Of a stretch of 64,000 nt of DNA, positions 2,574-19,692 are shown in pieces. The stretch spans positions 1,737-65,736 of the forward strand of contig CAYUJZ010000002.1 in the NCBI GenBank assembly GCA_964445165.1, read 5' to 3'. Each line of letters opens with the position of its first letter. Within the stretch, counting starts at the first letter, position 1. The position numbers were made by a program, and so were the translations under genes. This DNA is from an uncultured Methanosarcinales archaeon. Lineage in GTDB: Archaea; Nanobdellota; Nanobdellia; Woesearchaeales; JASKKU01. The notes below the pieces were generated by a model, which did not search any database, was not told the origin of the DNA, and saw only the letters and a list, made by a program, of their open reading frames with translations.

Positions 2574-2591
2574 AATATTAAAAACAAAAAG

Positions 2592-4262
2592 TTAATCATT
2601 ACACCTACTTGAGTTAATAAGGAATAAATATGGCAAATCGGTATCCTGAAATAATTCAGTACAATTCATAAAATTTTTATAGAGAGAAATCCTTTCAAGA
2701 CTACTATAAATTGCTGTTATATTTCTCTTCAGAATGTATTGATCTAACGAATGATTATAAATATTTAATGCTGCTTGATGATTTACCACACCATCAAGAT
2801 TAACAACATTGAAAGATGAGAAAAAAGACAATCTCCCTGAATCAAAAGAACCAATTATTAAACTGTCATCAAACCTTAATTCAAGCTCTTTTAACTTTTC
2901 AAAGAAATCGGATTCTTCTTTATTGATTAGTATTAGATAGGAAGTCAGAAAACCTGAAATTACAATTAAAAAACATAAAATAAACCTCGAAGAAGAACTA
3001 AAGGATAATATTTGTCTTCTAGATACAAGAATCAAAGAGATTAGAATCAAAAAAGAGGGCGTAAGAATGTACCATATTTGAAAATGGGATATATAAAAAA
3101 TATAAAAAAAGGCCATTGCAAAGCCCAATAAAGCAAAAAACCAACAATTTCGAAAATCGTAACTAGTTGCTGGCTTAAATAACTTAACTAAAAGAATAAC
3201 ACAAAAAAGGAAGATCATAATTGATATGGAAAAATCAGTAAAGTTACTTCCAGCAAAACGAATTGGATCAAAATAAAAGCCTGGAAGCAGAAAAAGAGAT
3301 AAGAAGCAACAAAAAAACATTAAAAGATTCCCAATGTTTTTTTTATCTAAAAAAGTCTTCCTGGAAAAAGAAGGAAAGTTAATAAAAATTAAAGGAAATA
3401 ACAAAATCGAACCAAAAATGCTTAAGAACTTAAGTGGCCATACTGCTAAATTTGTCATTTTAGCCAAGTTTTGATGATTGTATGTTTCTCTATAAGAAAG
3501 AACCTTGCCTGATTCTTGCATAAATGAACCGAAATTCAAGTATGAGTACACAAACCAAGGGCTAATTAATATTAAAAAAAACAAAAAAGATAGCATAAAT
3601 TTTTTAATTTGATCTTTTGAAAGAACAATCCTTCTATTCTTATATAAATAAAAAAGGAAACATAAAAAGATGGGTATAATTGTATCACTTCTTGAGAGAA
3701 AACTCAATGCACCAAAAACACCAAGCAGAATAAAAAAGTATAATTTTTTATTTTCTGAATTTAACAGCTTTACAAAAAGATACAAAAACAAAGAAAAGAA
3801 GAATAATGCAAGAGGGGTTTCTACTCCTTGTTTAGAAATAAAAAAAACAAGAGGACTGGAAACCCATATTAAAAGGAACAATAAAGAAATAAAGTTGTTT
3901 CGTATTGTATTTTTTATAATTAAGTATCCAATAACTCCAGAACCTATGATTAAACAATGCATAAGTAAATGAGAAAGGATTTGAATTGCATTTTCCGATA
4001 AACCTGAAAAATTATAAATGAAAATCAAATACAAAAGGTACAGAGGATGGAAACCATTTGTTGTTGAGAAGCCATCACTGGTAATGAAGCCAAATTTTTC
4101 ATAATTTCTTGCCAGAACAAGATAATAATAAAAATCGTCAGAAATAAAACTTTCTCTTGAAGAAGGTTCAAAAAAAAAGAGAAAAAAACCTGAAAAAGAA
4201 AAGTAAAAAATAATTGATATCAAAGCGATATAAAATAGACACTTTTTTTCTTTTTTATTCAA
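2592..4262 (-). CDS. polytopic membrane protein, GT-C-fold glycosyltransferase-like (PMT/ArnT/YfhO-like), on a low-GC island
   Basis: 556 aa with more than 12 predicted TM helices. An N-terminal short loop is followed by a long hydrophobic core and a C-terminal soluble domain (…VVNLDGVVNHQAAL…). Composition is dominated by F/L/I/K/N/S/Y. Local GC is about 25-27% (hand count of 60-nt lines) against about 47% in the flanks. Confidence 0.45.
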   Translation of the reverse strand: MNKKEKKCLFYIALISIIFYFSFSGFFLFFFEPSSRESFISDDFYYYLVLARNYEKFGFITSDGFSTTNGFHPLYLLYLIFIYNFSGLSENAIQILSHLLMHCLIIGSGVIGYLIIKNTIRNNFISLLFLLIWVSSPLVFFISKQGVETPLALFFFSLFLYLFVKLLNSENKKLYFFILLGVFGALSFLSRSDTIIPIFLCFLFYLYKNRRIVLSKDQIKKFMLSFLFFLILISPWFVYSYLNFGSFMQESGKVLSYRETYNHQNLAKMTNLAVWPLKFLSIFGSILLFPLIFINFPSFSRKTFLDKKNIGNLLMFFCCFLSLFLLPGFYFDPIRFAGSNFTDFSISIMIFLFCVILLVKLFKPATSYDFRNCWFFALLGFAMAFFYIFYISHFQIWYILTPSFLILISLILVSRRQILSFSSSSRFILCFLIVISGFLTSYLILINKEESDFFEKLKELELRFDDSLIIGSFDSGRLSFFSSFNVVNLDGVVNHQAALNIYNHSLDQYILKRNITAIYSSLERISLYKNFMNCTELFQDTDLPYLFLINSSRCND

Positions 4263-4285
4263 TATTTGTCCCTCTCTTTAAGCGT

Positions 4286-4411
4286 TTTGAGATAAGCGCC
4301 AGGGGAGGGATTCGAACCCCCGCTCCCAAAGGGACAGGCTCTCAAGGCCTGCGCAATACCAGACTATGCGACCCTGGCTCAGGCAGAAGAGTCTAGCGAA
4401 GCTTTATAAGG
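4286..4411. repeat. 126-bp direct repeat, copy 2
   Basis: Identical to 2448-2573. Its last 19 bp encode the C-terminus (…LIKLR) and TAG stop of the HAD gene at 4393-5001. Confidence 0.9.
4297..4378 (-). tRNA. tRNA-Ser (anticodon UGA), copy 2
   Basis: Sequence identical to copy 1, with the same upstream TATA-like element. Confidence 0.75.
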
Positions 4412-5001
4412 TTTTTTCTTTGGGCAAGGTAAACCTCTGAGAATTCTTTCATCAGGGGCTTGTCTCCCTTGCCATCGGTGTAGAGTATTATGTGCTTGCC
4501 CTGGAAGCCTCCAAGGTGCTGCCTTAGGCGCCTGAGCTTTTCTTTGCCATAGCAATTTTTGCCGTCAAGCCTGCCTGTAAACTTATTGTCTTTAAACTCG
4601 AGCTTTGTTGCGATGACCTCTTTTATGCCTAATGAATCTGCAAAGGGCTGCACCCAGTTTTCTATGGAAGCGGTTGCGATGATAACCCTGTTTTTCTTTT
4701 CAACATGGAAATTTATTTTTTCAAGTATTTTTTTGTTTAGGCGCTTTTGCATCCTGGCGTGGAACTTCCTGCACTTTTCATTGAAATAATCCAGGGTTGT
4801 ATTCCTGAAGAAGAAGCTAAGCAGGATCTCCTTTGCCCTAGAGTTTGTGATAAGCCCAAGCCTGTATGAGATAAAAACAGGAGAGAGAAGTGCAACACCG
4901 GATAAAAACTTAAAAGGCCCATAGTTAAATATAAGAAAAGCATACAGGGAATCCGTATTAATTATTGTCTCGTCAAAATCAAAGACCGCTATCTTTTCCA
5001 T
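4393..5001 (-). CDS. HAD-superfamily hydrolase (phosphoserine-phosphatase-like, HAD-IB)
   Basis: N-terminal HAD motif I VFDFDETII (DxDxT), a cap-domain segment, and C-terminal motifs GDGKGD…TDG. 202 aa. The 3' end lies inside repeat copy 2. Confidence 0.65.
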   Translation of the reverse strand: MEKIAVFDFDETIINTDSLYAFLIFNYGPFKFLSGVALLSPVFISYRLGLITNSRAKEILLSFFFRNTTLDYFNEKCRKFHARMQKRLNKKILEKINFHVEKKNRVIIATASIENWVQPFADSLGIKEVIATKLEFKDNKFTGRLDGKNCYGKEKLRRLRQHLGGFQGKHIILYTDGKGDKPLMKEFSEVYLAQRKNLIKLR

Positions 5002-5007
5002 TTTTGC

Positions 5008-6144
5008 TCAGTAAGGGTCCCATTCCTTGATTTCTTCATACTTAGGGAACTTGCCGTAGGGGTACTGCTTAAAAAGCTTTCCCCACTCGGTTTTGTTGAA
5101 CTGGGCTATCTTCTTTTTTCCTGTGGTTGGGTACCACAAGGAGTCGTGGTAAAAGCCTGATGCGAATATAAACATCTTGAACAAGGGTGAATGGAAAAGA
5201 AGGTTGTGGAGCCATTTTATGTTTGATGTGCCTTTCCTTATCCTCTGGTCCCACTTGATTACCAGGCTCTTTTTTGTCTGGAAGCCAAAGTTTAGCCTTT
5301 TGAACTCGCTTTCCGGCATTCCAAGGATTTTTATCCTGTTAAGGCCTGCGTTTCCCAGGCCTGCGTCATCTGCCAGCTTAAGGTACTTGATTCTCAGTGG
5401 GTCAAAGCCCATGATTTTTGCTGCAACTGCATCAATGGCAACCTGGTCGTCACCTGCAAGGATTATGTTTCCTATGTAGGGCTCCATTACCCTGGGGCCT
5501 GCGCCGTCCCCGCATACTGTGCCGTCCATAACCGCAAAGACACTGCTGTGGATTTCTTTCTGTATTGAGAGAAGGTCTACCAGGACTTCATGTATCTTTT
5601 TGTGGGCATGGTGCCTGTACTTTGGGATTAAGCCGCCGAAAGCGTTTTTCATAGCGCCTGTGGTTGTGGTGTGGCCGTGGGTTTTTACAGTAGGGAGGTG
5701 AACTACATTTGAGCCGAAGAACATTTTAGGCACCAGAATCTCGCCGAAAAGGTCTTTCATTGCGAGCATTTTTGACTTTGGCCTGTGGGTTACCCACTCG
5801 ACGTCAGTAAGGGGCTGGTACTTAACCCCGTACTTTTTTAGCATAGGGAGCCATTTGTTGTCGTAGGCGCCTTTCCAGGGGTGTGTGACAACAGTCTGGT
5901 TCTCAACGCCTACTATCTTTTCATAGCCGTCTTTTTTAAGTGTCCTGAGAAGGCCTTCGAGCTGCCAGGGCTGGGTTGAGCAGGCTGGGTAGTAGAGGCT
6001 CCAGGAAAGGTTGAGCTTTATAATGGTCTCTGCTGTCTTTTTTATGATTTTTTCGTATGCACAGAGATGCAGGAGCTTTTCGTAATCATCAAGAACTGTC
6101 TCTGGCGATGTCCTTAGTACCGCAACTTTGCTTTGCATTTTCAT
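5008..6144 (-). CDS. DUF362-like protein
   Basis: 378 aa with IIKLNLSW…P segments and MDGTVCGDGAGP, which is reminiscent of DUF362-family proteins. The match is from memory, not a search. Confidence 0.4.
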   Translation of the reverse strand: MKMQSKVAVLRTSPETVLDDYEKLLHLCAYEKIIKKTAETIIKLNLSWSLYYPACSTQPWQLEGLLRTLKKDGYEKIVGVENQTVVTHPWKGAYDNKWLPMLKKYGVKYQPLTDVEWVTHRPKSKMLAMKDLFGEILVPKMFFGSNVVHLPTVKTHGHTTTTGAMKNAFGGLIPKYRHHAHKKIHEVLVDLLSIQKEIHSSVFAVMDGTVCGDGAGPRVMEPYIGNIILAGDDQVAIDAVAAKIMGFDPLRIKYLKLADDAGLGNAGLNRIKILGMPESEFKRLNFGFQTKKSLVIKWDQRIRKGTSNIKWLHNLLFHSPLFKMFIFASGFYHDSLWYPTTGKKKIAQFNKTEWGKLFKQYPYGKFPKYEEIKEWDPY

Positions 6145-6185
6145 TCAGGATGGGGATGGCTGGCTCTTTTAAATGTTTTCAAAAG

Positions 6186-7055
6186 CTAGCCCAGGATAGC
6201 GAAGCCATTGGTGTAGTAGAATGCAAAGAGCATGTAAACAAACCAAAGGAACAGGGAAGAGAGAAGAACCTTGTCCCTCACCAGCAGGCGCTCTATAGAC
6301 TCAACATTGTGTTTTTTTAAGTTAAGGTAGAGGTATCTCAGGAGCGCAAGCACCACAAAAAAAAGCGAGTACATCACCATCTCTGAGTGCGCGCCCAGGA
6401 TGCAGTAGATTGCATAAAACACTATGCAGGAGGTTACTGACAAAACCAGCATCGCATCCAAGATGCCTTCAGTATATGACTCAAGGACTTTTCTTTTGTT
6501 TTTTATGTGAACCAGCTCTGACTTCCTCTTCCCTACTGCAAGCATCAGCGCCAGGAAGAATGTGGCGAAAACAATCCAGGGAGTAATCTTGATGTTGACA
6601 GGGATTCCTCCGGCGAGTATCCTTATCACGAAGAGAAACCCAACGAGAAACACATCAAATACCGGGATATGCTTCAGCCTGAAGCTGTAGAGCAGGTTTA
6701 TGCCAATGTAGGCGAAGATTATCAGGGATGCTGTAAAATGCAGCCTTGAGAGGACTGCCAGCATAAAGATTCCCAGCAGGCAGGCAAGTGCAAGCGCCTC
6801 AAGGGTGCTTACTTTTCCTGAGGCAATCGGCCTTTTTGACTTTATGGGGTGAAGCCTGTCTTTTTCTTTGTCTGCTATGTCATTAACTATGTAGACAATG
6901 CTGGAAGCAAAAGAAAAAGCCAGAAAAACCAGAAACACGCTTATAAACAGGGGTATGTTGGTGATGTTCTCAGAGAAGAAAAGAGGCGCAAAGATTACTG
7001 CGTTCTTGTAAAAATGCGAAACCCTGAGGCACTTTATGTAGCTTAAAACTTTCAT
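6186..7055 (-). CDS. UbiA-family prenyltransferase (DGGGP-synthase-like / polyprenyl-phosphate phosphoribosyltransferase-like)
   Basis: UbiA Asp-rich motif NDIADKEKDRLHPIKSKRPIASGKVS. 289 aa with 8-9 TM helices. Confidence 0.7.
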   Translation of the reverse strand: MKVLSYIKCLRVSHFYKNAVIFAPLFFSENITNIPLFISVFLVFLAFSFASSIVYIVNDIADKEKDRLHPIKSKRPIASGKVSTLEALALACLLGIFMLAVLSRLHFTASLIIFAYIGINLLYSFRLKHIPVFDVFLVGFLFVIRILAGGIPVNIKITPWIVFATFFLALMLAVGKRKSELVHIKNKRKVLESYTEGILDAMLVLSVTSCIVFYAIYCILGAHSEMVMYSLFFVVLALLRYLYLNLKKHNVESIERLLVRDKVLLSSLFLWFVYMLFAFYYTNGFAILG

Positions 7056-7428
7056 TAAGCAGTAGATAAAAGTGTGCTTTAAATGTTTTTCGCCGGGTTT
7101 TTGCTGAAAAAGAAGAGCTTAATTGACTTCAGCAAATTATTCAGAAAAAGAGGAATTATCCAGAAAAAAGCCTACTCCTTTAGCCACAATTTTCTGCTTA
7201 AATTCAGAGCTGTCAAACAGCTTTTTCTGCTCAGGCGTTAAATCCTGGCCACACTTTGCCTCATTTAAATATGTTGCGTTTATCAAACGCAACTTTTATA
7301 ACTGTTGGGAAAACGCTTAATTCCCTGAGTTCTAGCTGATTCCTGAAAAATAACAAAAATTTTAAATAACATCCCAAAACCTGACTCTTATCTGGATTCG
7401 TTCCGGGCTGCAGTTAGGGGGCTTAAAA

Positions 7429-10350
7429 ATGCGCGTACTTGATGAGATTGATGATGTAATTGAAGACAGAAAAGACAAGAAAACCAAGGTTCTGCTTACT
7501 ATTGTGCTTATTCTTATTCCTATGCTTCTGGCTATTTTCATAAGGGTGCAGCCTGCCTACCTGCCTATTACTGATGAATGGGCGAGAGACAGCATTTACA
7601 ATGGGATTGGCAACCAGATACAGCAGCAGGTTAATGCGCAGTACCCTCTCCTGCCTGAGCAACAGAAGCGAAGCATTGTGCAGGAGCAGCTTGACGAGTA
7701 TATTAGGCAAAATAGTGAGATGATTGAAAGGGAAATTCAGAGGTATTCCCTTGAGCTGAAGGAAAAGCTCAAAGAAGACGAGGGAAATATAACTTACCTT
7801 ACTGCGATTGACCCATACCATTACTTCAGGCTTACCAGGAACATAGTTGAGCTGGGGCATCCCGGAGACATGATGCTTGAAGATGGCAGAAACATTGACT
7901 ACCTTATGCTTGGCGGGGCGCCGATTGAGAGAAAGCCAACCTACCACAGAAGGTTTACAAACCTGCTTGAGCTGATCAATGCAAACACTTACAGGATGCT
8001 GCGCTTTCTCGGCTCTGATGTAACGCTTCTGCAGGTGGTGTTTTTTAGCTCTGTCTGGCTTTCTGCAGCCTGTGTGATTCCTGCTTTTTTCATCGGGAAA
8101 AGGCTTGCCGGAAACATTGGAGGGTTTTTTGCAGGGGCAGTTATTGCTATCCACCCTTTCTTTGTCTCCAGGACTATTGGCGGGTTTGCTGATACCGATG
8201 CTTTTAACATTCTGTTTCCACTGATTGCCGCTTGGATGCTTATTGAGGCTTTCAGGAGCAGAAACACCAGGAATACTGTAATATTCTCTGTGCTTACTGC
8301 CGTTACATTATGGATTCTCTCAACGGCGTGGACTCCTGGGCCAACGCTTATAGTGCTTCTGGGCGCGCTTGCTGCCAATGTGGCGCTTGCGCTGATTCTT
8401 TACAACACCGCAAGGTTCAAGGATAACAGGAAAGGCAAGGGCTATGCTTTTATGGCAGTGAATGCCGGGCTGATAGCGGTTATACTGCTTGCTCTTTACT
8501 TCATTGACACTAGCCTGCTTCCCTGGGGAGGCCTGTTCCAGGGGACTGTTTCAAATATTTTCTTAATTATATTCTTTTCAACAATATTTGCCGGGTTGAT
8601 TTATCTTGCATCTGAGCTGTTATCTTCGGGGCTGAAGAGAGATGTTTCTGAAAAGAAGCAGTTTTTTAGGAAGGAAGCAAAGATTACTTTGCTGATTCTG
8701 GGAGTCTTTTTTGTGTCTTATTTTCTGATGAGCTCATACAACTTAAGGTCAGGAGGCTTTAACTTTAGCAATATGATAGACAACATCGGAGCAACGATAG
8801 GGTTTGTCCAGATTAAGGATGTTGCGACTGGCACTATCTGGCCGAATGTTTACACGACTGTTGCTGAGCTAAAACAGGCAAGCTTCAGCCAGATTGTTGA
8901 TAACCTTGGGGGGCAGTTCCTCTTCTTTGTCTCTTTGATAGGAATTGGTATAGCTGTTTTTGCGAAAGGTAGGGGCAAAAACAATACTGCATTGTTCTCC
9001 CTGCTTCTTGCGATCTGGATGGCTTCAACTGTGTACGCTACATTCAAGGGAATCAGGTTTGTGCTTATGATCGTGCCGCCTTTTGCGATTGCGATCGGGG
9101 TTGCGATTGGGCTGGGCGGAAAATACTTAGCTGGCATGCTTGAAAAGAACTTCCAGATAAAAGCAAGCATCACCAAGCTGCTTCTTGTGGCTTTGTTTGT
9201 GTTTGTGCTGTTTTTCGGCACTGACTCTATGTACTCAAATGCCTACCAGCTTTCATCAAGGCAGTTCCCTATGATGAACGACGGATGGTTTGGGTCCTTA
9301 TCTGAAATCAATGAAAAGTCAGACGAGGATGCTATCATAACGTCCTGGTGGGATTTTGGGCACTGGTTTAAGGCAATAGCAAGAAGGCAGGTCACTTTTG
9401 ACGGTGCGAGCCAGAATACGCCGATGGCGCACTGGGCTGGAAGAATACTGCAGACTGACGATGAGACTGAAGCATTAGCGATACAAAGGATGCTTAACTG
9501 CGGCTCTAACGAGGCGTTTTATATCCTTGAGGAGAACCTCACGGACGCTGCTGCAATAAGGATTGTTAAGGACATTATTATGATGCCAAGGGAGGATGCA
9601 AGGCAGCACCTTCTTAATTATGTAAGCGAGGATGCTGCTGAACAGATTCTTCAGTATTCGCACTGCACTCCGCCTCAGTCTTTCTTTATCACATCTGAAG
9701 ACATGGTTGGGAAATCTGAGGTTTGGGGGCACTTCGGCACCTGGAACTTCACAAGGTCAACGATGTACAACAGGGTTAGGTTTTTGGGGGAGGCTGAAGC
9801 CCTGGAGATTTTAAAGGATTACTTTAACCTGAGCGATGAGCTTGCAAGGAGGTATTACTACCAGATAAGGGTTACTGACAATGCTGATGAGTGGGTTTCT
9901 CCCTGGCCTTCCTATATCGGGGCAGAGATCAGCTGCACGAAGAGAAATAATGAAACTATCCTGGAATGCACGAGAATGTTCTCGGCTACGCAGGGCGTAA
10001 AGGTGTTTATCAACCTTACCTCAATGGAGGCTTATGTGAGCCAGATGGAAAACGGGAGCAGGCCGCACTCTTTTGTTTACTATGATGATGAGGGGAACTC
10101 TTACATCAAAGAATATGAGTCGCCTTTGCTTGACCTGTCAGTAACCCTGAAAGAGCGTGCTGACGGAAGCTACCAGATTGTCATGGGCGACCCGCTGCTT
10201 AGAAACAGCATGTTCACGAGGCTGTTTTTCCTTGAGGGGCACGGAACGAATTACTTTAAAGAATTCAGCAACATAAGGGATGTTTTTGGGCAGAGGGTAA
10301 TTGTGTGGACTATTGACTGGGAGAGCTTTTTAGAGGATTTTGAGGGCTGA
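7429..10350 (+). CDS. aglB: archaeal oligosaccharyltransferase AglB (STT3 family)
   Basis: 973 aa. A 13-TM N-terminal domain is followed by the diagnostic WWDFGHW (WWDYG) motif at SWWDFGHWFKA and a large C-terminal periplasmic domain. Confidence 0.85.
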   Translation: MRVLDEIDDVIEDRKDKKTKVLLTIVLILIPMLLAIFIRVQPAYLPITDEWARDSIYNGIGNQIQQQVNAQYPLLPEQQKRSIVQEQLDEYIRQNSEMIEREIQRYSLELKEKLKEDEGNITYLTAIDPYHYFRLTRNIVELGHPGDMMLEDGRNIDYLMLGGAPIERKPTYHRRFTNLLELINANTYRMLRFLGSDVTLLQVVFFSSVWLSAACVIPAFFIGKRLAGNIGGFFAGAVIAIHPFFVSRTIGGFADTDAFNILFPLIAAWMLIEAFRSRNTRNTVIFSVLTAVTLWILSTAWTPGPTLIVLLGALAANVALALILYNTARFKDNRKGKGYAFMAVNAGLIAVILLALYFIDTSLLPWGGLFQGTVSNIFLIIFFSTIFAGLIYLASELLSSGLKRDVSEKKQFFRKEAKITLLILGVFFVSYFLMSSYNLRSGGFNFSNMIDNIGATIGFVQIKDVATGTIWPNVYTTVAELKQASFSQIVDNLGGQFLFFVSLIGIGIAVFAKGRGKNNTALFSLLLAIWMASTVYATFKGIRFVLMIVPPFAIAIGVAIGLGGKYLAGMLEKNFQIKASITKLLLVALFVFVLFFGTDSMYSNAYQLSSRQFPMMNDGWFGSLSEINEKSDEDAIITSWWDFGHWFKAIARRQVTFDGASQNTPMAHWAGRILQTDDETEALAIQRMLNCGSNEAFYILEENLTDAAAIRIVKDIIMMPREDARQHLLNYVSEDAAEQILQYSHCTPPQSFFITSEDMVGKSEVWGHFGTWNFTRSTMYNRVRFLGEAEALEILKDYFNLSDELARRYYYQIRVTDNADEWVSPWPSYIGAEISCTKRNNETILECTRMFSATQGVKVFINLTSMEAYVSQMENGSRPHSFVYYDDEGNSYIKEYESPLLDLSVTLKERADGSYQIVMGDPLLRNSMFTRLFFLEGHGTNYFKEFSNIRDVFGQRVIVWTIDWESFLEDFEG

Positions 10351-10387
10351 TTTTTAGGGAAACGAGAGCTGTTAAAGGGAAATACAA

Positions 10388-11578
10388 ATGAGCCAGAAAG
10401 AAAACTGGATATTTGATAGAGGCCTGTTTAGCAACAAGAAGGTTTTGGCAGCTCTACTTTTTTGTGTTGCTTTTGTTCCTACTTTTATTCAGGTTGTCCT
10501 GAAAATGGTAATCCTCAGGGGGCCAAAGTTTGCTATTACACATCTGTTATTTAACTATGAGATAGAGTTTGTTAAAAGGGGGCTAATAGGAGAATTGCTG
10601 AGGCTTGTTTTTTCCGAAATAACTTTTAAGATTGCTATGGCTTTCTTCTTTATAATACTAGCAGTCGCGCTGGCTGTGCTGGTGCTTGTCTTTTTTAAGC
10701 CCTATAAGCTCTATAAAAAGCCTGGGCTTTTTCTTTTCTTCCTTCTTGCAATAACGCATTTTGCAACTGCAAACCAGTTTATTTATGACATCGGAAGGTT
10801 TGACCAGTTTCTTCTAATTATAACCTTTGTTTGCATGATTATGATATGCCGGCTCAAAACGCTGAGCTATTTCCTGCTGCCTTTGCTGATTGTTTTGGGG
10901 CTTCTTATACATGAGGCTTTCCTTTTTATGTTTATACCCCTGATTTTTGCCTATTACATCTACAAGAGAAGAATGGTAAAAAGAGAGCTTGCTTTCTTAT
11001 TCCTGCTCGGGGGCTTAGCTATTTGCTCTACATACATTATTGGAACAAGAGGAATGGTTACGACAATGGGTTATGAAGAGTATTATAGCAACCTCAAAGA
11101 AGGCGAGAAAGCGCTCGTGTCTGAGGGTGCCTCGAATATTCCTTTCAGGGGGCTAAAGGACAATTTAGAATACAGCTTTGCAAGGAACAGGGACAAGAAT
11201 TTCTTTCTGGACCACATGATATTCTTAATCGCGCTTAGCCCGACTATTTTCCTTTTTGGGAAAATCTTCAAAGCACTAGTAAGAAACAGAAAAGAGCTGC
11301 TTCTTGCTTTTTCTGCATTAACTCCTCTTTTGCTCTACTTGCTGGGGCATGACTTTGCAAGGTGGTGGGGGCTAGCTATAACAAATGCCTTTATAGTTAT
11401 ATCGCTTCTTGCGCTTAAAAAGAGCAGCTCTGAGAAACTGGAGAAGGCTTGTATTGAAAACAAGCACTTAATCATTAACGCAATAATTATCTCATTAGTC
11501 TTGGGCCCAATCGGGATTTACAGTTTCTTCCCTAGGATTGTTGAAGGAATCAAGTTCCTGGTGATGTTTGTTTTGTGA
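10388..11578 (+). CDS. uncharacterised polytopic membrane protein (paralog A; candidate Wzy-like polymerase or ligase)
   Basis: 396 aa, multi-TM. Shares long identical stretches with 13121-14323, for example YE(I/L)EFVKRGLIGE, KPGLFLFFL.AITHFATANQFI.DIGRFDQ and GLLIHE.F.FMFIPLI.AYYIYK. Confidence 0.5.
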   Translation: MSQKENWIFDRGLFSNKKVLAALLFCVAFVPTFIQVVLKMVILRGPKFAITHLLFNYEIEFVKRGLIGELLRLVFSEITFKIAMAFFFIILAVALAVLVLVFFKPYKLYKKPGLFLFFLLAITHFATANQFIYDIGRFDQFLLIITFVCMIMICRLKTLSYFLLPLLIVLGLLIHEAFLFMFIPLIFAYYIYKRRMVKRELAFLFLLGGLAICSTYIIGTRGMVTTMGYEEYYSNLKEGEKALVSEGASNIPFRGLKDNLEYSFARNRDKNFFLDHMIFLIALSPTIFLFGKIFKALVRNRKELLLAFSALTPLLLYLLGHDFARWWGLAITNAFIVISLLALKKSSSEKLEKACIENKHLIINAIIISLVLGPIGIYSFFPRIVEGIKFLVMFVL

Positions 11579-11602
11579 TTAAAAGAAAATGTTTTTATAT
11601 GA

Positions 11603-13114
11603 TTGCCTGATAGTTTTTCCTGGAAAATGAGCGAGAGCCTTAAGCAGACTGTCAGGAAGAATGTCTTTTTTCTTTACCTGTTCTCTTTTCTTGTTATTCC
11701 TGTGAGCTTTGCAATAAGGATTGTTCTTGCGAGGAATCTTTCCGGGGCTGATTTCGGGCTTGTTTACTCTCTGCTTAGCTTCTTTGGGCTGATTAGCATA
11801 TTTAATGACTTTGGGCTTACTGAAACTTTGAACTATCATGGTGTGAGGTTCTACGAGAAAAAGAGGCTTGGCAGGCTTAAGGGCGCTGTGCGGATTGCTT
11901 TTCTTTCCCAGACGATTACTGCTGTTGCGATTGGGCTGGTGCTTTTCTTTTTTGCGCCCTGGCTTGCTGAGAATTATTTTCATTACCCTATGGCTGGGGC
12001 GGCTTTGCAGGCCGGGCTGCTTTATTTCCTGTTCTTCAACATGTCCAGGGCTTTTGTGACTGCGGTAAATGTTACCCAAAATGTGTTTTACAACAAGATG
12101 TTTGAGGTGTTTAACCTTGCTGTGGTCGCAGCCGGGGTGGTGGCTTTGTGGCTTACCGGCAGGCTGAGCGCTGAGGGAACGATGCTGTTCTGGGGGATGG
12201 GAATTTTTATTGTCTTTATTCTTTCATTCTTTGTTTCAAGGAGCAAGATTAGGGAGATTTCGCGTGTGAAGGCTGAGGCTGACTTTGGGCTGTTTAAGAA
12301 GCTGTTGAAGTATTCTTTGTTTGTTGCGCTTGGGACAGGGGCGATGTATGTGCTGAGCTATTCTGACCTGCAGGTTATAACTTACTTTTCCACGCTTGAG
12401 AATGCGGGGCTTTACAGCGCTGCGAGCTCTATCTCTAAGGTGCTGGCCGGGCTTGCACTGCCTATCGCTGCGCTGCTTTTCCCGCTCGGGTCCAAGCTTT
12501 TTTCAGAGGGCAGGAAAAAGGAGATTAAGGCTATTCTTGAGCTGACTTACTCATTGGGCTTTTTTGTGGCTGTGCCGTTTTTTCTGCTTGCGAGTGTTTT
12601 TTCTAAGGAGGTTCTTCTGGTAATCTTCGGGCAGGGGTTTGTTGCCTCGCAGGGGGCTTTGCTGGTGCTGCTTGCTGCGAAAGTGTTTTATGTGTTTTTC
12701 TCTATTAACTTTGCTTTCAGCGCTGCTTTCGGAAGGGTTAAGGAAAGAACCAAGTACCTTTATTTTGCTGCCTTGCTGAATATTGTGCTGAGCATCCTGC
12801 TTGTGAGGGTGCTTGGGATTGTCGGGGTTGCTGTGGGGACTCTGGTGACTACCTTGTTTCTCTTTGGGTCTACTTACTTTATTGTGAATAAAGAGGTGCC
12901 TTTCTCGATTGACTTTTTTTATATCCTGAAGACTGTGTTTCTTTCCCTGGGGGTGCTTGTGCTTGCTTTTGGCGTGAAGGCAGTGATGCCTGGGCATTAT
13001 GTGGTTAAGGCTGTTGTTATTGGAGGGCTGGCTTGTGCTGTTTACCTGCTTGGGGGGATTAAGCTTAAGCTTGTGGATGTCAAGAAGATTCTTGCAATGG
13101 TTAGGGAGAGGTGA
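11603..13114 (+). CDS. Wzx-like oligosaccharide flippase (MOP/polysaccharide biosynthesis protein family)
   Basis: 503 aa with about 14 TM helices and the organisation typical of PST/Wzx flippases. It sits in the glycan locus next to aglB. Confidence 0.6.
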   Translation: MPDSFSWKMSESLKQTVRKNVFFLYLFSFLVIPVSFAIRIVLARNLSGADFGLVYSLLSFFGLISIFNDFGLTETLNYHGVRFYEKKRLGRLKGAVRIAFLSQTITAVAIGLVLFFFAPWLAENYFHYPMAGAALQAGLLYFLFFNMSRAFVTAVNVTQNVFYNKMFEVFNLAVVAAGVVALWLTGRLSAEGTMLFWGMGIFIVFILSFFVSRSKIREISRVKAEADFGLFKKLLKYSLFVALGTGAMYVLSYSDLQVITYFSTLENAGLYSAASSISKVLAGLALPIAALLFPLGSKLFSEGRKKEIKAILELTYSLGFFVAVPFFLLASVFSKEVLLVIFGQGFVASQGALLVLLAAKVFYVFFSINFAFSAAFGRVKERTKYLYFAALLNIVLSILLVRVLGIVGVAVGTLVTTLFLFGSTYFIVNKEVPFSIDFFYILKTVFLSLGVLVLAFGVKAVMPGHYVVKAVVIGGLACAVYLLGGIKLKLVDVKKILAMVRER

Positions 13115-13120
13115 GGGCTT

Positions 13121-14323
13121 TTGACTGCAGATGAGCATATCCATAATAAGGATTGGCTATACTCATGGATTATTGAAAACAAGAAACTATCGCTGGCACT
13201 GTTTGTGCTAGCTGCATTAATCCCTACTCTGGTTATGACCATCCTGAAGCTTGTGATTTTAAGGTGGAAAAGCATTGGGACTGGCCTTTTTGTAAACTAT
13301 GAGCTTGAATTTGTTAAGAGAGGGTTAATCGGAGAGGCTTTCAGGCACATTTTTTCAGAGATTACATTTAGCATCACTGTGGTTTTCTCTTTTATTATTA
13401 TGGCTGGGGCGATAATTGTGCTTGCTGTCTTGTTTTACAAGCCATATAGGCTGAATAATAAGCCTGGGCTATTCTTATTCTTTCTTTTTGCTATAACGCA
13501 TTTTGCAACTGCAAACCAGTTTATATTTGACATTGGAAGGTTTGACCAGGCTCTTCTGGTAATTGCTTTTGTGTGCTTTATTTTGATTAACAAGAGAATG
13601 AAAATAGGCTACCTTTTGATTCCGTGCCTGCTTGTTTTGGGGTTGCTGATACATGAAGGCTTCTTTTTTATGTTTATTCCCCTGATAATTGCTTACTACA
13701 TTTATAAGAACAAGATCTGCTGCTGGAAGCTTGCATTCTTGCTTTTTCTGGGCATACTGGCTGTTGGCTCTACTTATATTATCGGAACTGAGGGCCAGCT
13801 AACCAAGACTTCAATTGAGGACCACCAACGTTATATTAATGAAAAAAACAGCGAGATAAGCATTCCTTATGAACCCGAGGGAATTCATACAAGAGGTGTT
13901 AAGGAAAATATAGGCTATACTGTTGAGAGGCTGGCTAACCGGTGGACTGTTTTTGGGCTTCTGGTTTTTTTTCCTGCAGTTTTGCCAACGATTATGATTT
14001 TTAAAAAAATATTCAGGGCGATTATAAAGAGCAAAAAAGAGCGTCTTCTGATGCTGGCCTGTTTAACTCCTTTGCTGCTTTACCCCTTGGGGATTGACGG
14101 CCCGAGGTGGATTGGGCTGGCTATAACTAACCTTTTTATTGTCACTTCGCTGCTTGCCTTGAACAAGAGCCACTCAAATAAGCTTAACAGCATTATGGTT
14201 GAGATAAGGCACTTGGTTATAGGGGCAATAATTATTTCTGTAATCCTTGGCCCTATCGGGGTGGTAACCTTTTTTACCAGAATAACTGAGCCTATAAGAT
14301 TTTTGGTTGGCTACAGACCCTGA
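13121..14323 (+). CDS. uncharacterised polytopic membrane protein (paralog B of 10388-11578)
   Basis: 400 aa. By-eye alignment to paralog A gives about 55-60% identity across the full length. Confidence 0.5.
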   Translation: MTADEHIHNKDWLYSWIIENKKLSLALFVLAALIPTLVMTILKLVILRWKSIGTGLFVNYELEFVKRGLIGEAFRHIFSEITFSITVVFSFIIMAGAIIVLAVLFYKPYRLNNKPGLFLFFLFAITHFATANQFIFDIGRFDQALLVIAFVCFILINKRMKIGYLLIPCLLVLGLLIHEGFFFMFIPLIIAYYIYKNKICCWKLAFLLFLGILAVGSTYIIGTEGQLTKTSIEDHQRYINEKNSEISIPYEPEGIHTRGVKENIGYTVERLANRWTVFGLLVFFPAVLPTIMIFKKIFRAIIKSKKERLLMLACLTPLLLYPLGIDGPRWIGLAITNLFIVTSLLALNKSHSNKLNSIMVEIRHLVIGAIIISVILGPIGVVTFFTRITEPIRFLVGYRP

Positions 14324-14902: not shown

Positions 14903-14965
14903 AATGCCGGGAAGCTGGAATTATTTAAAAAAGTTTATAAAAAAGCTCACGGAGCTTAACCTGAT

Positions 14966-16078: not shown

Positions 16079-16103
16079 AAACATAAGGCTTTTTTGAAAT
16101 TGG

Positions 16104-17312
16104 TCAGAAAACAGGCTTGCCATCAAGATTTTTGGGGATCTCGCTTTCAAGCCCCAAGGCTTTTAGCATTGAGGGGAATATGTCTACTACATTCATCTCT
16201 TTGTGCTTTGTCCTGAAGGCGTTTGTTATAAAGAAGCCGTAAGAGCATGGTGATTCCGGGGCGTATCCATGCATTCCCCTGATGCCTGAGCGGATTGGGG
16301 CAAAGTAGTCTGGAAAGATTCTTGTGTTTGTCTTAACCAGAAATATGTCTTCTCCCCATTTCCTGTCTTCAAACCTAATGTGGTATTTTTCACGCTGCTT
16401 GTCATCAAGGTATGTTAGCTCAGGGACTTTCCTAAAGGCTTCGACAACTTTTTCCCTAACGCCTTTTCTATGGTACCAAAACCTTACCATGGTTGCATCA
16501 AAGAATGCAACGAAGTCTCTTGGCTGCTTAAACTCCAGGGATTTGAAAACCGGCCTTAAGTCAACAAAGTTTTTGACTTCGCACATGCCGTGGTCTGAGA
16601 ATGCAAACAAATTAACCTTTCCATGCTCTTTAAGCGCTTTGGTGTACAGCTCTTTTACTTTCTTATCACACTGCTTGAGGTAATCAATTACTTTCTCTGA
16701 TGAAGGGCCGTATGAGTGGCCGTATCCGTCTCCAAAGTACATATAAAAGAAATCTGCCTGGCTCTTTGTCAGCTTCATATCGCTTACTTCATTTACATTT
16801 TTCTCTCCTATAAAAAGGCAGCCGAGGTCTGCCTGCCCGTGCCAGGAGATTTTGTTTTTTTCCAGGACAGAGAACAGGCTCTCCTTGTATTCTGGCTCCT
16901 GGGATTTGCACGAAAAGAACCTGGACATTTTTGGTGGGAGCGCAGGTGGGTACTCAATAATCCTTTTGTACCATTTTGGTGAGGATTGCTTAAGCCTTTT
17001 GAATTTGTAATAGGGAATTTTAACTGCACCTATAAAGTATTTCCTGAGCTTTTCAAACGGAATCAGCTTTAGGTACCAGACAGGCTTGAAATAATTGGAT
17101 TTTGGGTCGTAGTAGTATATTGTGAATTTTTTATGCCTCTCCTGGTAAAGGCCTGTCCAGATGGTTGGGTGAATGCCTACCGAGAAGCCTAAAAGGGTTT
17201 TTAGCGGCAGTAGCTGCTGTTTCTCTGAAAGCTCGTATAAGAAGGGGGTGATTTCTGGCGTAATTTGGTCATGCCTTACTGCATCCATGAGAAAAATAAG
17301 TGTTTTTTGCAT
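16104..17312 (-). CDS. alkaline-phosphatase-superfamily type I phosphodiesterase / nucleotide pyrophosphatase-like enzyme
   Basis: 402 aa. N-terminal LIFLMDAVRHD (the metal-binding Asp region of NPP/AlkP-fold enzymes) and C-terminal GMHGYAPE (the GxHGY motif). Confidence 0.55.
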   Translation of the reverse strand: MQKTLIFLMDAVRHDQITPEITPFLYELSEKQQLLPLKTLLGFSVGIHPTIWTGLYQERHKKFTIYYYDPKSNYFKPVWYLKLIPFEKLRKYFIGAVKIPYYKFKRLKQSSPKWYKRIIEYPPALPPKMSRFFSCKSQEPEYKESLFSVLEKNKISWHGQADLGCLFIGEKNVNEVSDMKLTKSQADFFYMYFGDGYGHSYGPSSEKVIDYLKQCDKKVKELYTKALKEHGKVNLFAFSDHGMCEVKNFVDLRPVFKSLEFKQPRDFVAFFDATMVRFWYHRKGVREKVVEAFRKVPELTYLDDKQREKYHIRFEDRKWGEDIFLVKTNTRIFPDYFAPIRSGIRGMHGYAPESPCSYGFFITNAFRTKHKEMNVVDIFPSMLKALGLESEIPKNLDGKPVF

Positions 17313-17313
17313 A

Positions 17314-18471
17314 TTAAATCCTTTTTATTGCCTGGTAATTCCTTTCGCAGTTGTGATTATCTATGTGCTTAAAAAACTTATCGGCTCTTTCTGCGTATTT
17401 TTTCTCCGTCTCAAAGCTTTTTGTTTCATTAATTCTCTTAAGAATTCTTTCAAGCTCATCTATCATCTGCTTCTCTGTTTTTACTACCTTGCCAAAGCCT
17501 TCTTTATCGTAATCGAAGATGTCTTCATAATGATACTTCCCTATCTGGTAGAATATCATATGCCTTTTCATATAAGCAAAGTCGAAAAGCACGCTTGAGT
17601 AGTCGGTGATTAGCAGTGCTGAGCGTTTAATGAGAGCTGAAATGTTGTTGTTTTTATCTGTCTTATCACCGATTACTTTTACCCTCTCAAATTCTGAGTT
17701 GAAGAGGTGAGAGTATTTTTGCATAACATAATGAAGCACAAAATTCAGCCTGAAATCATACTTTTCAAGAAGCTTATTTATGGAGCCTGAATTAATGATA
17801 TTATTAAGAGCAATATAGTACTTGTGCTTCTTAAACTCTTCTTCACTCGCACCCTGAAGGCTTTTCTTCCAGCTCATCATCACAAGTATCTCTCTTTCAG
17901 GCTGCGCACCATAGAGATTATCAAACCTGGCTAATCCGGTGATTTTTATCTCTTTTTCATATCCCATATATTTCTTGACAATCTGAGCTTCTTTTTCTGC
18001 AGAACAGACAAACATGTCAAAATGCCAGTACTTCTTATGGTATGGATTAACTTTAGACTTGATTACTCCATGCTGAAGAAAGATTAATTTTGTTCTTGGC
18101 TTAAGAAGTTTCTTCAAAGAGTAGCCTTCTTTATAAAAATAAAAAGGGTCCGTATCGTAGCTAAAGATTAACTTGCCTGCGTGCACAAAATACCAGAGAT
18201 GCCTTAAAGAGAACCTGTAAACAACATTTTTGTCCTCAAGCATTTCCTTAAATTCTGCAGATTTCTTGTTTTTGCATAAGAATACAGAGGTTATTTTCTT
18301 ATCTTTTTTCTTTACGTAATTGTAAAGGTAATAAGCATTGTCAATACCGAAAGGCCTTTCTATGAAAAACCAGATTTCTTTCTTTTTGAGAAACCAGAAT
18401 GGCTTAAATATAATATAGAAAAAAATCAAGTAAGCCATATATACTGCTGCCTTGAACCTGCTTTCTATCAT
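17314..18471 (-). CDS. CDP-glycerol glycerophosphotransferase-like (TagB/TagF, Glyphos_transf family)
   Basis: 385 aa. The FLQHGV…KITGLARFDNLY region resembles the conserved HG…G.PR.D core of TagF-family enzymes. Its stop overlaps the AlkP-like gene by 1 nt (17312/17314). Confidence 0.5.
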   Translation of the reverse strand: MIESRFKAAVYMAYLIFFYIIFKPFWFLKKKEIWFFIERPFGIDNAYYLYNYVKKKDKKITSVFLCKNKKSAEFKEMLEDKNVVYRFSLRHLWYFVHAGKLIFSYDTDPFYFYKEGYSLKKLLKPRTKLIFLQHGVIKSKVNPYHKKYWHFDMFVCSAEKEAQIVKKYMGYEKEIKITGLARFDNLYGAQPEREILVMMSWKKSLQGASEEEFKKHKYYIALNNIINSGSINKLLEKYDFRLNFVLHYVMQKYSHLFNSEFERVKVIGDKTDKNNNISALIKRSALLITDYSSVLFDFAYMKRHMIFYQIGKYHYEDIFDYDKEGFGKVVKTEKQMIDELERILKRINETKSFETEKKYAERADKFFKHIDNHNCERNYQAIKRI

Positions 18472-18669
18472 TTGACTAACAAGAATAAACCTTTTTACAA
18501 TGATATTTAAAATTAATGTTTTTTAAAATTGTTATACTCTTTTAATATAATGGTATTTTCCCTGGTTTTTCGTCTAGGTTTGCTGAATTGCCTTTAAAAA
18601 CAGATTAAAAACACGAGAATTTTTTTTACGACAGAAAATCACTAGAAACCCAACACATCACATCTAGTT

Positions 18670-19685: not shown

Positions 19686-19692
19686 TTTCTGT

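What the first reader, a model, noticed from the sequence alone, without database searches (positions are those of the whole stretch)
5008..14323. N-glycosylation / surface-glycan locus: UbiA prenyltransferase, AglB, and a Wzx-like flippase bracketed by two closely related unknown membrane proteins
From the sequence: AglB has the WWDFG catalytic motif. A divergently transcribed UbiA-family prenyltransferase (NDIADKEKD…RPIASG) lies immediately upstream. A 14-TM MOP/Wzx-like flippase lies downstream.

The flippase is flanked on both sides by two roughly 400-aa polytopic proteins that are about 55-60% identical to each other. They share YE.EFVKRGLIGE, KPGLFLFFL.AITHFATANQFI.DIGRFDQ and LIHE.F.FMFIPLI. 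They match no family I can recognise.

The flippase is 6 nt from paralog B and starts 24 nt after paralog A's stop, which implies co-expression. This points to dedicated partners of the flippase or AglB, for example Wzy-like polymerases, ligases or acyltransferases. A duplicated accessory of this kind around a Wzx gene has not, to my knowledge, been described.
Basis: partly seen in the sequence, partly recalled or inferred. Interest (0 to 1): 0.55.

Follow-up and report, generated by a model that had tools for sequence, protein, structure and literature searches.

The report
Archaeal lipid-linked pentose glycosylation cassette
The two unknown membrane proteins around the flippase are most likely outward-facing sugar transferases that use a lipid-linked five-carbon sugar made by the neighbouring UbiA and phosphatase genes, an archaeal, strain-variable version of a bacterial system described in 2024.

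Summary
AglB, paralog A, a MOP flippase and paralog B form one tight + strand operon, and A and B are 54% identical. A UbiA gene is transcribed divergently.

The interpretation needs revising. The UbiA is a decaprenyl-phosphate phosphoribosyltransferase-type enzyme, in an operon with a HAD phosphatase. Together these make polyprenyl-phospho-ribofuranose.

The paralogs are not orphans. They belong to a large uncharacterised family (5222 representatives), about 390 aa with 12 membrane helices. All invariant polar residues (R64, D139, H175, E176, D322, R325) face outside. A confident AlphaFold model matches only GT-C glycosyltransferases (PglB, STT3, PimE, ALG3), and weakly.

In eight independent loci, bacterial, archaeal or unassigned, the family sits inside donor-synthesis operons (UbiA, DprE1, DprE2, GtrA, HAD). 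There it is the only remaining polytopic protein.

Best reading: pentofuranosyltransferases of a three-component system (Kelly et al. 2024), here in a Woesearchaeota-like N-glycosylation locus. The transferase family is not GT136 by sequence, and a MOP flippase replaces the small one.

A sister strain keeps AglB, flippase and UbiA/DUF362/HAD but lacks both paralogs. They are therefore variable decoration genes, not obligate flippase or AglB partners. No enzymatic activity was tested.

The parts
4393..5001 (-). HAD-IB phosphatase. Proposed 5-phosphoribose phosphatase converting dolichyl-P-ribose-5-P to dolichyl-P-ribofuranose.
   Evidence: Pfam HAD E 1e-33 and TIGR01490 above cut-off. It is the last gene of the UbiA-DUF362-HAD operon. 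HAD is fused to the UbiA in L028 and L006 (PRK08238, 638 and 627 bits). HAD also ends the operon in L021. The role is inferred from Kelly et al. ORF15.
5008..6144 (-). DUF362 protein of unknown role, placed between the donor synthase and the phosphatase.
   Evidence: Pfam DUF362 E 4.7e-28. No PDB sequence match. 96% identical in the sister strain. Absent from all bacterial family/DPA operons.
6186..7055 (-). UbiA-family polyprenyl-phosphate 5-phosphoribosyltransferase (DPPR-synthase type), the donor synthase.
   Evidence: NCBIfam NF008977 E 6.3e-58, best hit but 196.5 bits against a cut-off of 234. PDB 8j8j decaprenyl-phosphate phosphoribosyltransferase E 7.1e-33, against about 1e-3 for other UbiA enzymes.
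7429..10350 (+). AglB/STT3 oligosaccharyltransferase.
   Evidence: Pfam STT3 E 9.6e-38, WWDFG motif. Best NCBIfam hit is archaeo_STT3.
10388..11578 (+). Paralog A: 396-aa, 12-helix membrane protein with a GT-C-like fold. Proposed dolichyl-P-pentofuranose-dependent glycosyltransferase.
   Evidence: model pLDDT 89.9, pTM 0.91. (only GT-C matches are above noise). (topology). (operon contexts).
11603..13114 (+). MOP-superfamily (Polysacc_synt/Wzx-like) flippase. Its cargo is undetermined: the lipid-linked oligosaccharide or dolichyl-P-pentose.
   Evidence: Pfam Polysacc_synt E 1.1e-18 and Polysacc_synt_3 E 2.4e-18. 98% identical in the sister strain that lacks both paralogs. An alternative ATG start lies at 11627.
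13121..14323 (+). Paralog B: 400 aa, 54% identical to A, with the same invariant residues. Proposed second transferase for a different acceptor position or linkage.
   Evidence: Absent in sister strain L056.
2592..4262 (-). Strain-variable 556-aa polytopic membrane protein. Possible third lipid-donor glycosyltransferase, judged by motif only.
   Evidence: No Pfam or NCBIfam hit. The segment 'SDDFYYYLVLARNYEKFGF' follows the first helix. The gene lies between two perfect 126-nt repeats and is present or absent among strains. Assignment as a glycosyltransferase is an untested inference.
16104..21977 (-). Rest of the glycan locus: phosphodiesterase-family protein, CDP-glycerol glycerophosphotransferase-family protein, and three GT4/GT1-type cytoplasmic glycosyltransferases.
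   Evidence: Precomputed Pfam assignments on identical contigs L009-L011.

Best explanation
The locus encodes an archaeal version of the three-component system for adding pentofuranose sugars outside the membrane.

Proposed steps:
1. On the cytoplasmic face, the UbiA-type enzyme (6186-7055) transfers 5-phosphoribose from PRPP to dolichyl phosphate.
2. The HAD phosphatase (4393-5001) removes the 5-phosphate, giving dolichyl-P-ribofuranose. The DUF362 protein may modify it further.
3. The lipid-linked sugar is flipped to the outside. The MOP flippase is the only candidate in the locus.
4. Paralogs A and B each transfer the pentofuranose from the lipid donor to a different position or linkage of a surface glycan. 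Both are 12-helix, GT-C-like proteins whose invariant R64, D139, H175, E176, D322 and R325 all face outward.

The acceptor is most likely the AglB-dependent N-glycan, either before or after transfer to protein. Haloferax AglD/AglR/AglS do this with mannose.

The paralog genes are swappable cassettes that vary the surface glycan between strains.

Shown: gene identities, paralogy, topology, fold resemblance, operon associations and strain variability.
Inferred: every enzymatic step, the identity of the sugar, and the acceptor.
For: 1. Donor genes. The UbiA is DPPR-synthase type, with a HAD phosphatase in the same operon.

2. Family context. Eight independent loci place the family inside or beside donor-synthesis genes:
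- L021: UbiA-FAM-GtrA-DprE1-DprE2-HAD.
- L027: UbiA-FAM-DprE1-DprE2.
- L028: HAD~UbiA-GtrA-DprE1-DprE2-FAM.
- L052: UbiA-DprE1-DprE2-FAM.
- L032 (Heimdallarchaeota): DprE1-DprE2-FAM.
- L049: UbiA-FAM.
- L022: FAM-UbiA-SMR-GMC oxidoreductase-NAD epimerase.
- L006: FAM with UbiA-GtrA-DprE1-DprE2 about 6 kb away.
(identities confirmed with NCBIfam.)
In these operons, where enough sequence is available to judge, the family is the only polytopic protein left once UbiA and the small GtrA/SMR-type membrane proteins are set aside. L030 has a GT2+GtrA pair nearby.

3. Fold. The model has pLDDT 89.9 and pTM 0.91. Two models both return only GT-C enzymes above noise: PglB (probability 1.00, E 9.5e-3), STT3 (0.98), AftB (0.92), PimE (0.77) and ALG3. 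Paralog A has a sub-threshold PMT_2 hit.

4. Topology. K+R count is 11.5 in the inside loops against 2.5 in the short outside loops. All invariant residues are outside.

5. Synteny. A 43%-identical relative lies in the order FAM-AglB-flippase-GT2-GT4.

6. Precedents. The bacterial three-component system is described in PMC11127046. Haloferax AglD/AglR/AglS is described in PMC3871713.
Against: - No activity was tested.
- Fold matches are weak: best E 9.5e-3, TM-scores 0.35-0.46.
- There is no invariant acidic residue in the first outside loop, where classical GT-C enzymes carry their catalytic Asp/Glu.
- There is no sequence similarity to a GT136-type candidate or to a haloarchaeal Mannosyl_trans4 GT-C.
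- Many family members, such as Pelagibacteraceae, Opitutae and the P0154/P0161 subfamily, have no donor genes within 10 kb.
- In the window the UbiA operon is separated from the paralogs by AglB and is on the other strand.
- The sister strain keeps UbiA/DUF362/HAD without either paralog. The donor therefore has at least one other consumer, and the link in this genome is not obligatory.
- No epimerase or small flippase was found in the window.
Confidence: 0.55

Rival explanations
1. The paralogs are GT-C-like glycosyltransferases that use another lipid-linked donor, such as dolichyl-P-hexose. In this genome they are unrelated to the UbiA/HAD operon, and their proximity reflects only a shared glycan island.
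For: Many family loci lack DPPR-synthase genes. Some have GT2 or GT2+GtrA neighbours instead. The sister strain keeps UbiA/HAD without the paralogs. The UbiA operon is divergent and separated from the paralogs by AglB.
Against: The closest relatives with readable context are in donor-synthesis operons: L021, L027 and L049, at 32-34% identity. No Dpm1- or GtrB-type GT2 gene lies next to the paralogs in the window.
Confidence: 0.17
2. The paralogs are Wzy-like polymerases or WaaL-like ligases that act on the flipped lipid-linked repeat unit, as partners of the Wzx-like flippase.
For: They flank a Wzx-like gene in one operon. One relative is named 'Wzy' in UniRef. One of 67 members has a weak EpsG hit, E 0.002. 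GT136 ORF12 is itself labelled EpsG-like by CDD.
Against: WaaL scores as noise in the fold search, probability 0.06. There is no Wzy_C or O-antigen-ligase Pfam hit. Most family contexts have no Wzx or repeat-unit genes and instead carry DPA-synthesis genes. Both paralogs are dispensable in the sister strain, which keeps the flippase.
Confidence: 0.1
3. The family is not a transferase. It would be a flippase, scaffold or lipid-carrier-recycling protein for the polyprenyl-P-pentose.
For: It co-occurs with donor-synthesis genes. It lacks the canonical GT-C acidic residue in the first loop. L027, L052 and L049 show no recognisable GtrA/SMR gene.
Against: GtrA or SMR candidates are present alongside it in L021, L028, L006 and L022. 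Without it those operons would have no transferase at all. The invariant Arg/Asp/His/Glu residues cluster on one face only, which is typical of an active site. The fold matches are to glycosyltransferases, not transporters.
Confidence: 0.08
4. The paralogs add a non-sugar group, such as an acyl or phospho-substituent, to the glycan.
For: An invariant His-Glu pair is present. One family member has a weak TraX acyltransferase hit, E 3.7e-4. A hexapeptide acetyltransferase gene lies next to the family gene in L022.
Against: There is no fold match to MBOAT or acyltransferase-3 proteins. The recurrent partners are sugar-donor genes, not acyl-donor genes.
Confidence: 0.05

Closest known systems
Three-component pentofuranose side-chain glycosylation systems (Citrobacter youngae O1 ORF15/ORF14/ORF12; Kelly et al. 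2024, PMC11127046)
   Same: Both have a UbiA-type polyprenyl-phosphoribose synthase plus a HAD phosphatase making a lipid-linked ribofuranose. Both have a flippase and a polytopic GT-C-type transferase acting outside the membrane. Both diversify the surface glycan. Systems with several GT-C genes, and a phage-borne one, are reported there.
   Different: - The transferase here is about 390 aa with no carbohydrate-binding domain.
- It shows no sequence similarity to a GT136-type candidate from that paper's own list (hhalign probability 0.3).
- The synthase and phosphatase are separate genes with a DUF362 gene between them.
- No SMR/GtrA-type small flippase is present; a MOP flippase stands in.
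- No epimerase was found.
- The host is an archaeon and the locus is built around AglB. The lipid would be dolichol and the acceptor probably an N-glycan.
Mycobacterial arabinan pathway (Rv3806c DPPR synthase, Rv3807c, DprE1/DprE2, Rv3789, and the Emb/Aft GT-C arabinofuranosyltransferases)
   Same: The donor chemistry is the same. The window UbiA matches the solved DPPR synthase at E 7e-33. Relatives of the paralogs sit in UbiA-DprE1-DprE2-GtrA operons. AftB and PimE are among the fold matches.
   Different: Emb and Aft enzymes are much larger and belong to other families. The window has no DprE1/DprE2, so ribofuranose rather than arabinofuranose is the default prediction.
Haloferax volcanii AglD/AglR/AglS (dolichyl-P-mannose made inside, moved out with a MOP-type protein, added to the Asn-linked glycan outside)
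   Same: It is an archaeal N-glycan finished outside the cell from a dolichyl-monophosphate sugar, with a Wzx-like protein implicated in moving that donor.
   Different: The sugar is mannose, made by a GT2 enzyme from a nucleotide sugar. No similarity between AglS and the paralogs was tested here.
Pfam PF27463 'Rv1490' (uncharacterised membrane protein family)
   Same: Four of the 36 relatives with E <= 1e-10 carry a precomputed hit to this entry; the one hit for which a strength was reported is flagged weak.
   Different: The window proteins carry no such hit and the model is not in the local Pfam copy. No functional literature on Rv1490 was found.

Membership tests
Three-component pentofuranose glycosylation system (Kelly et al. 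2024) | UbiA-type polyprenyl-phosphate phosphoribosyltransferase | tested here: met
   NF008977 E 6.3e-58, the best hit but below the curated cut-off. PDB 8j8j E 7.1e-33.
Three-component pentofuranose glycosylation system (Kelly et al. 2024) | HAD-type phosphoribose phosphatase, fused or adjacent | tested here: met
   A HAD-IB gene lies in the same operon. Activity was not tested.
Three-component pentofuranose glycosylation system (Kelly et al. 2024) | Small four-helix (SMR/'MATE'/GtrA-type) donor flippase | tested here: not met
   No GtrA homologue was found among window ORFs. No small membrane ORF appears in the locus. No SMR seed or profile was run against the window. A MOP-family Polysacc_synt flippase is present instead.
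Three-component pentofuranose glycosylation system (Kelly et al. 2024) | GT-C transferase of family GT136 | tested here: not met
   hhalign of the 67-sequence profile against the Rhizobium CCGE531 GT-C candidate gives probability 0.3. phmmer finds nothing. C. youngae ORF12 itself was not available to compare.
GT-C glycosyltransferase superfamily | 7-13 membrane helices with a structured outside loop, containing short helices, after helix 1 | tested here: met
   The model shows 12 long helices. A loop at 43-79 contains helices 47-53 and 66-74. The N-terminus is inside by the positive-inside rule.
GT-C glycosyltransferase superfamily | Structural similarity to solved GT-C enzymes | tested here: inconclusive
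GT-C glycosyltransferase superfamily | Conserved catalytic Asp/Glu in the first outside loop | tested here: inconclusive
   Position 58 is D/E in 67% of members and position 69 in 76%. Neither is invariant. The invariant acids are D139, E176 and D322, in other outside loops.
GT-C glycosyltransferase superfamily | Uses a polyprenyl-phosphate-linked sugar donor | not testable with these tools
   Only gene-neighbourhood evidence is available.
Wzy polymerase / WaaL ligase | Sequence or fold similarity to Wzy_C/O-antigen ligase/EpsG families | tested here: not met
   The window proteins have no such Pfam hit. One of 67 relatives has EpsG at E 0.002. WaaL 7tpg scores probability 0.06.
Pfam PF27463 (Rv1490) | Match to the family model | not testable with these tools
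   The model is absent from the local Pfam copy. Only precomputed hits in four relatives are available, the one with a reported strength being weak.
AglB/STT3 oligosaccharyltransferase (for 7429-10350) | STT3 membrane domain and WWDxG motif | tested here: met
   Pfam STT3 E 9.6e-38. WWDFG is in the sequence.

The most novel reading that the evidence does not exclude
A family of more than 5000 sequence clusters of about 390-aa membrane proteins, spread across Bacteria and Archaea with a single phage-context member, would be a previously unrecognised glycosyltransferase family. It has weak links to the mycobacterial Rv1490 Pfam entry. It would have a GT-C-like fold but a non-canonical Arg/Asp/His-Glu/Asp-x-x-Arg outward active site, and would transfer arabino- or ribofuranose from polyprenyl-phosphate donors. 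Its presence next to AglB in a DPANN archaeon would be the first case of pentofuranose decoration of an archaeal N-glycan by a three-component system.
Probability: 0.4. Interest if true: 0.7.

Novelty: new variant of a known kind. Interest (0 to 1): 0.55.

Why it matters
If correct, this gives a testable function to a large protein family that is currently unannotated. It would supply the missing transferase in many bacterial arabinofuranose-donor operons that have no recognisable GT-C.

It would also extend the pentofuranose three-component pathway, so far described only for bacteria and one phage, to archaeal N-glycosylation. It shows how DPANN archaea may vary their surface glycans by swapping single transferase genes around a fixed AglB/flippase/donor core.

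It would provide new enzymes for glycoengineering with furanose sugars.

Tried and rejected
- Profile searches of PDB sequences with the family alignments found nothing meaningful.
- PF27463 is not in the local Pfam copy. No paper mentions it. The Rv1490 literature is immunological or ChIP-seq only, with no function.
- The 67-sequence alignment was too diverse for the search for related loci, so an 8-sequence alignment was used instead.
- tblastn of paralog A found nothing in the phage or plasmid collections.
- The phage record cited by Kelly et al. (BK026208.1) is not held.
- The sequence of the GT136 founder ORF12 could not be obtained. A candidate from the same paper's list (Rhizobium CCGE531) was used and showed no similarity.
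- The last context look-up (P0154) only repeated the non-glycan context already seen for P0161.
- Exact cluster look-up gave no taxon names. Taxonomy rests on one 87%-identical UbiA labelled Candidatus Woesearchaeota.
- The idea that GT2+GtrA pairs flank the Pelagibacteraceae members was checked and rejected. Those neighbours are Thy1 and SxtJ-like.
- Antisense ORFs inside AglB and the flippase (7423-8154, 11579-12079 and 12551-13144, all on the - strand) were treated as spurious. They lie wholly within the AglB and flippase coding regions on the opposite strand.


Full report
**Observation**

- On the + strand, AglB (7429-10350, WWDFG, Pfam STT3 E 9.6e-38) is followed after 37 nt by paralog A (10388-11578).
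- After 24 nt (48 nt if the ATG chosen by gene callers is used) comes a Polysacc_synt/MOP flippase (11603-13114).
- After a further 6 nt comes paralog B (13121-14323).
- A and B are 54% identical, E 5e-137, and about 72% identical over 504 nt of DNA.

**What the UbiA is**

It is not a generic prenyltransferase.
- Its best NCBIfam models are the decaprenyl-phosphate phosphoribosyltransferases, NF008977 at E 6.3e-58.
- Among solved structures it matches the mycobacterial DPPR synthase 8j8j at E 7.1e-33. Other UbiA enzymes score about 1e-3.
- With the HAD phosphatase, this is the gene pair that makes polyprenyl-phospho-ribofuranose from PRPP in bacteria. In C. youngae ORF15 the two are fused.

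**What the paralogs are**

- A word-indexed search found only 11 relatives. An exhaustive profile search found 5222 representatives with E <= 1e-3 and 562 with E <= 1e-30, almost all 340-440 aa.
- Local Pfam and NCBIfam give nothing above threshold. Paralog A has a sub-threshold PMT_2 hit.
- A few relatives carry a weak precomputed hit to a new Pfam entry, PF27463 'Rv1490'. I could neither search this entry nor find any function for it.
- In 67 diverse members the invariant residues are R64, G68, G136, H175, E176, D322 and R325. Nearly invariant are Y57, F61, K63, D139, P184, P285, P313, W326 and G373.
- An AlphaFold model built on 32 sequences is confident, with pLDDT 89.9 and pTM 0.91. It has 12 long helices and a structured loop with two short helices after helix 1.
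- The positive-inside rule is clear: K+R is 11.5 in one set of loops and 2.5 in the other. This places the N-terminus inside and every invariant polar residue outside.
- Foldseek against the PDB, run with two independent models, returns only GT-C glycosyltransferases above noise. These are PglB (probability 1.00, E 9.5e-3), STT3, AftB, PimE and ALG3. WaaL and all transporters and receptors sit at probability 0.1 or less.
- These scores are weak, with TM-scores of 0.35-0.46. I therefore call the fold GT-C-like rather than proven.
- The family lacks an invariant acidic residue in the first loop.

**The decisive evidence is gene context**

I called ORFs in 50-odd fetched loci and searched them with the window's proteins and with seeds from the loci. 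I then checked identities with Pfam and NCBIfam.

| Locus | Organism | Gene order |
|---|---|---|
| L021 | Methyloprofundus | UbiA-FAM-GtrA-DprE1-DprE2-HAD |
| L027 | Desulfomicrobium | UbiA-FAM-DprE1-DprE2 |
| L028 | Donghicola | HAD~UbiA-GtrA-DprE1-DprE2-FAM |
| L052 | metagenome contig | UbiA-DprE1-DprE2-FAM |
| L032 | Heimdallarchaeota | DprE1-DprE2-FAM (contig ends) |
| L049 | metagenome contig | UbiA-FAM |
| L022 | Helicobacteraceae | acetyltransferase-FAM-UbiA-SMR-like-GMC oxidoreductase-NAD epimerase |
| L006 | GenBank assembly contig (organism not shown) | FAM in a GT1/polyketide cluster, with UbiA-GtrA-DprE1-DprE2 downstream |

- These UbiA genes are DPPR-synthase type, and several pass the curated cut-offs.
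- The oxidoreductases are DprE1- and DprE2-like, E 8e-113 and 3e-58.
- In these operons, where enough sequence is available to judge, the family is the only polytopic protein besides UbiA and the small GtrA/SMR-type proteins. It therefore fills the slot of the transferase that consumes the lipid-linked arabino- or ribofuranose.
- L022 carries the same accessory set (SMR, GMC oxidoreductase, NAD epimerase) as a Rhizobium system listed by Kelly et al. That system instead has a 658-aa GT-C candidate.
- By my count, about nine of roughly 21 loci with enough flanking DNA show this association. A DPPR-synthase gene is expected in well under 1% of random 20-kb windows. That background figure is an estimate, not a computed control.
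- Other members have no such neighbours: Pelagibacteraceae, Opitutae, and the P0154/P0161 subfamily with a fixed META-FAM-RpiA context. The donor may therefore differ across the family. L030 has a GT2+GtrA pair nearby.

**Comparison with what is known**

- Kelly et al. 2024 (PMC11127046) defined three-component systems for adding pentofuranose outside the cytoplasm. The components are the synthase/phosphatase, a small flippase and a GT-C transferase (GT136), with optional epimerases that set the sugar: ribose, xylose or arabinose.
- The window has the synthase and the phosphatase.
- It lacks a GtrA-type small flippase. GtrA seeds found nothing in the window and no small membrane ORF is evident in the locus. 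A MOP flippase is present instead.
- Its transferase candidates are not GT136-like by sequence: hhalign probability 0.3 against the Rhizobium candidate, and phmmer finds nothing.
- No DprE1/DprE2 or NAD epimerase occurs anywhere in the 64 kb. The default prediction is therefore ribofuranose, unless the unexplained DUF362 protein modifies the sugar.
- The paper covers bacteria and one phage only. I found no literature on archaeal examples.
- A Halostagnicola megaplasmid carries a comparable set with a different GT-C and a PHP phosphatase.
- The archaeal precedent for finishing an N-glycan outside the cell from a dolichyl-P-sugar, with a Wzx-like protein involved in moving the donor, is Haloferax AglD/AglR/AglS.

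**Organism and strain variation**

- The UbiA is 87% identical to a protein labelled Candidatus Woesearchaeota.
- Contigs of that sister strain (L055, L056) keep the DAGK-family and PRT genes (97% and 98% aa), HAD (90%), DUF362 (96%), UbiA (87%), AglB (84%) and the flippase (98%).
- Nucleotide homology stops at window position 10346, resumes at 11593, and stops again at 13117. Exactly the two paralog genes are missing.
- Paralog A's slot holds a nucleotidyltransferase gene plus a 48-codon ORF on the other strand. Paralog B's slot holds part of a different polytopic protein.
- A 43%-identical relative elsewhere does sit in the order FAM-AglB-flippase-GT2-GT4.
- The paralogs are therefore exchangeable decoration genes around a conserved core, not obligate partners of the flippase or AglB.
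- This also means that in this lineage the UbiA/HAD product must have another consumer. That weakens, but does not remove, the donor-transferase link within the window.

**Rival explanations**

- A GT-C-like enzyme using some other lipid donor remains plausible (0.17).
- A Wzy-like polymerase or ligase is disfavoured by fold and context (0.10).
- A flippase or scaffold role is disfavoured because GtrA/SMR genes co-occur with the family, and the operons would otherwise lack a transferase (0.08).
- A non-sugar-modifying enzyme has only anecdotal support (0.05).

**Verdict**

The locus is best read as a new variant of a known kind of system. The evidence is a confident structural model with weak fold matches, a clear topology, and a strong recurrent operon association. 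No step has been shown biochemically.

Noticed in passing
window 2448-2573 and 4286-4411, enclosing 2574-4285: A perfect 126-nt direct repeat occurs twice, each copy holding tRNA-Ser(TGA). The repeats bracket a low-GC (0.33) segment with a single gene, the 556-aa polytopic membrane protein at 2592-4262 (-). The segment is missing exactly repeat-to-repeat in contigs L009, L011 and L012 and present in L010. It is therefore a strain-variable cassette gained or lost by recombination at the duplicated tRNA.
   Followed up: partly
L055/L056 against window 7056-7428, 10347-11592 and 13118 onward: The sister strain has an AAA_14/DUF4143 ATPase gene inserted between AglB and UbiA. A nucleotidyltransferase (NTP_transf_2) plus a 48-codon ORF replace paralog A. 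A different polytopic protein replaces paralog B. AglB (84% aa) and UbiA (87%) are far more diverged than the flanking genes (96-98%), which suggests diversifying change at the glycan locus.
   Followed up: partly
window 5008-6144 (-): A DUF362 gene is wedged between the donor synthase and its phosphatase and is conserved at 96% in the sister strain. It is found in none of the bacterial donor operons. Its role, for example sugar modification, is unknown.
   Followed up: partly
BFVD A0A514K300; L014 2689-4823: The only viral fold match is an uncharacterised 338-aa protein of Nitrosopumilus spindle-shaped virus 1 (probability 1.00, E 0.03). A family member (P0010) lies directly upstream of a P22-type coat protein gene. 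Viruses may carry this family for host-surface conversion.
   Followed up: no
L054 (Halostagnicola larsenii plasmid NZ_CP007056.1, 226433-232002): This haloarchaeal locus has a Mannosyl_trans4-type GT-C and an NAD epimerase, divergent from a DPPR synthase, a PHP-domain phosphatase and an LPG_synthase_TM protein. It looks like another archaeal pentofuranose system with different parts.
   Followed up: partly
L018-L020 and L059-L061: A distant subfamily (about 25% identity, the largest cluster seen) has a fixed non-glycan context: META-FAM-ribose-5-phosphate isomerase-chorismate lyase-4HB-type UbiA-RNase PH.
   Followed up: no
window 14324-21977: Downstream genes, in order: a YdjM-family membrane hydrolase abutting paralog B's stop codon; a 370-aa protein with no family hit; a phosphodiesterase-family protein; a CDP-glycerol glycerophosphotransferase-family protein; and three GT4/GT1 genes. 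The glycan may also carry glycerol phosphate.
   Followed up: no
L056 1-70: The contig begins with a translation 'RRPPRSTLSSSSAASDVYKRQ'. From memory, this resembles a sequencing-adaptor artefact; it was not checked. The first 23 codons of that partial ORF should be ignored.
   Followed up: no
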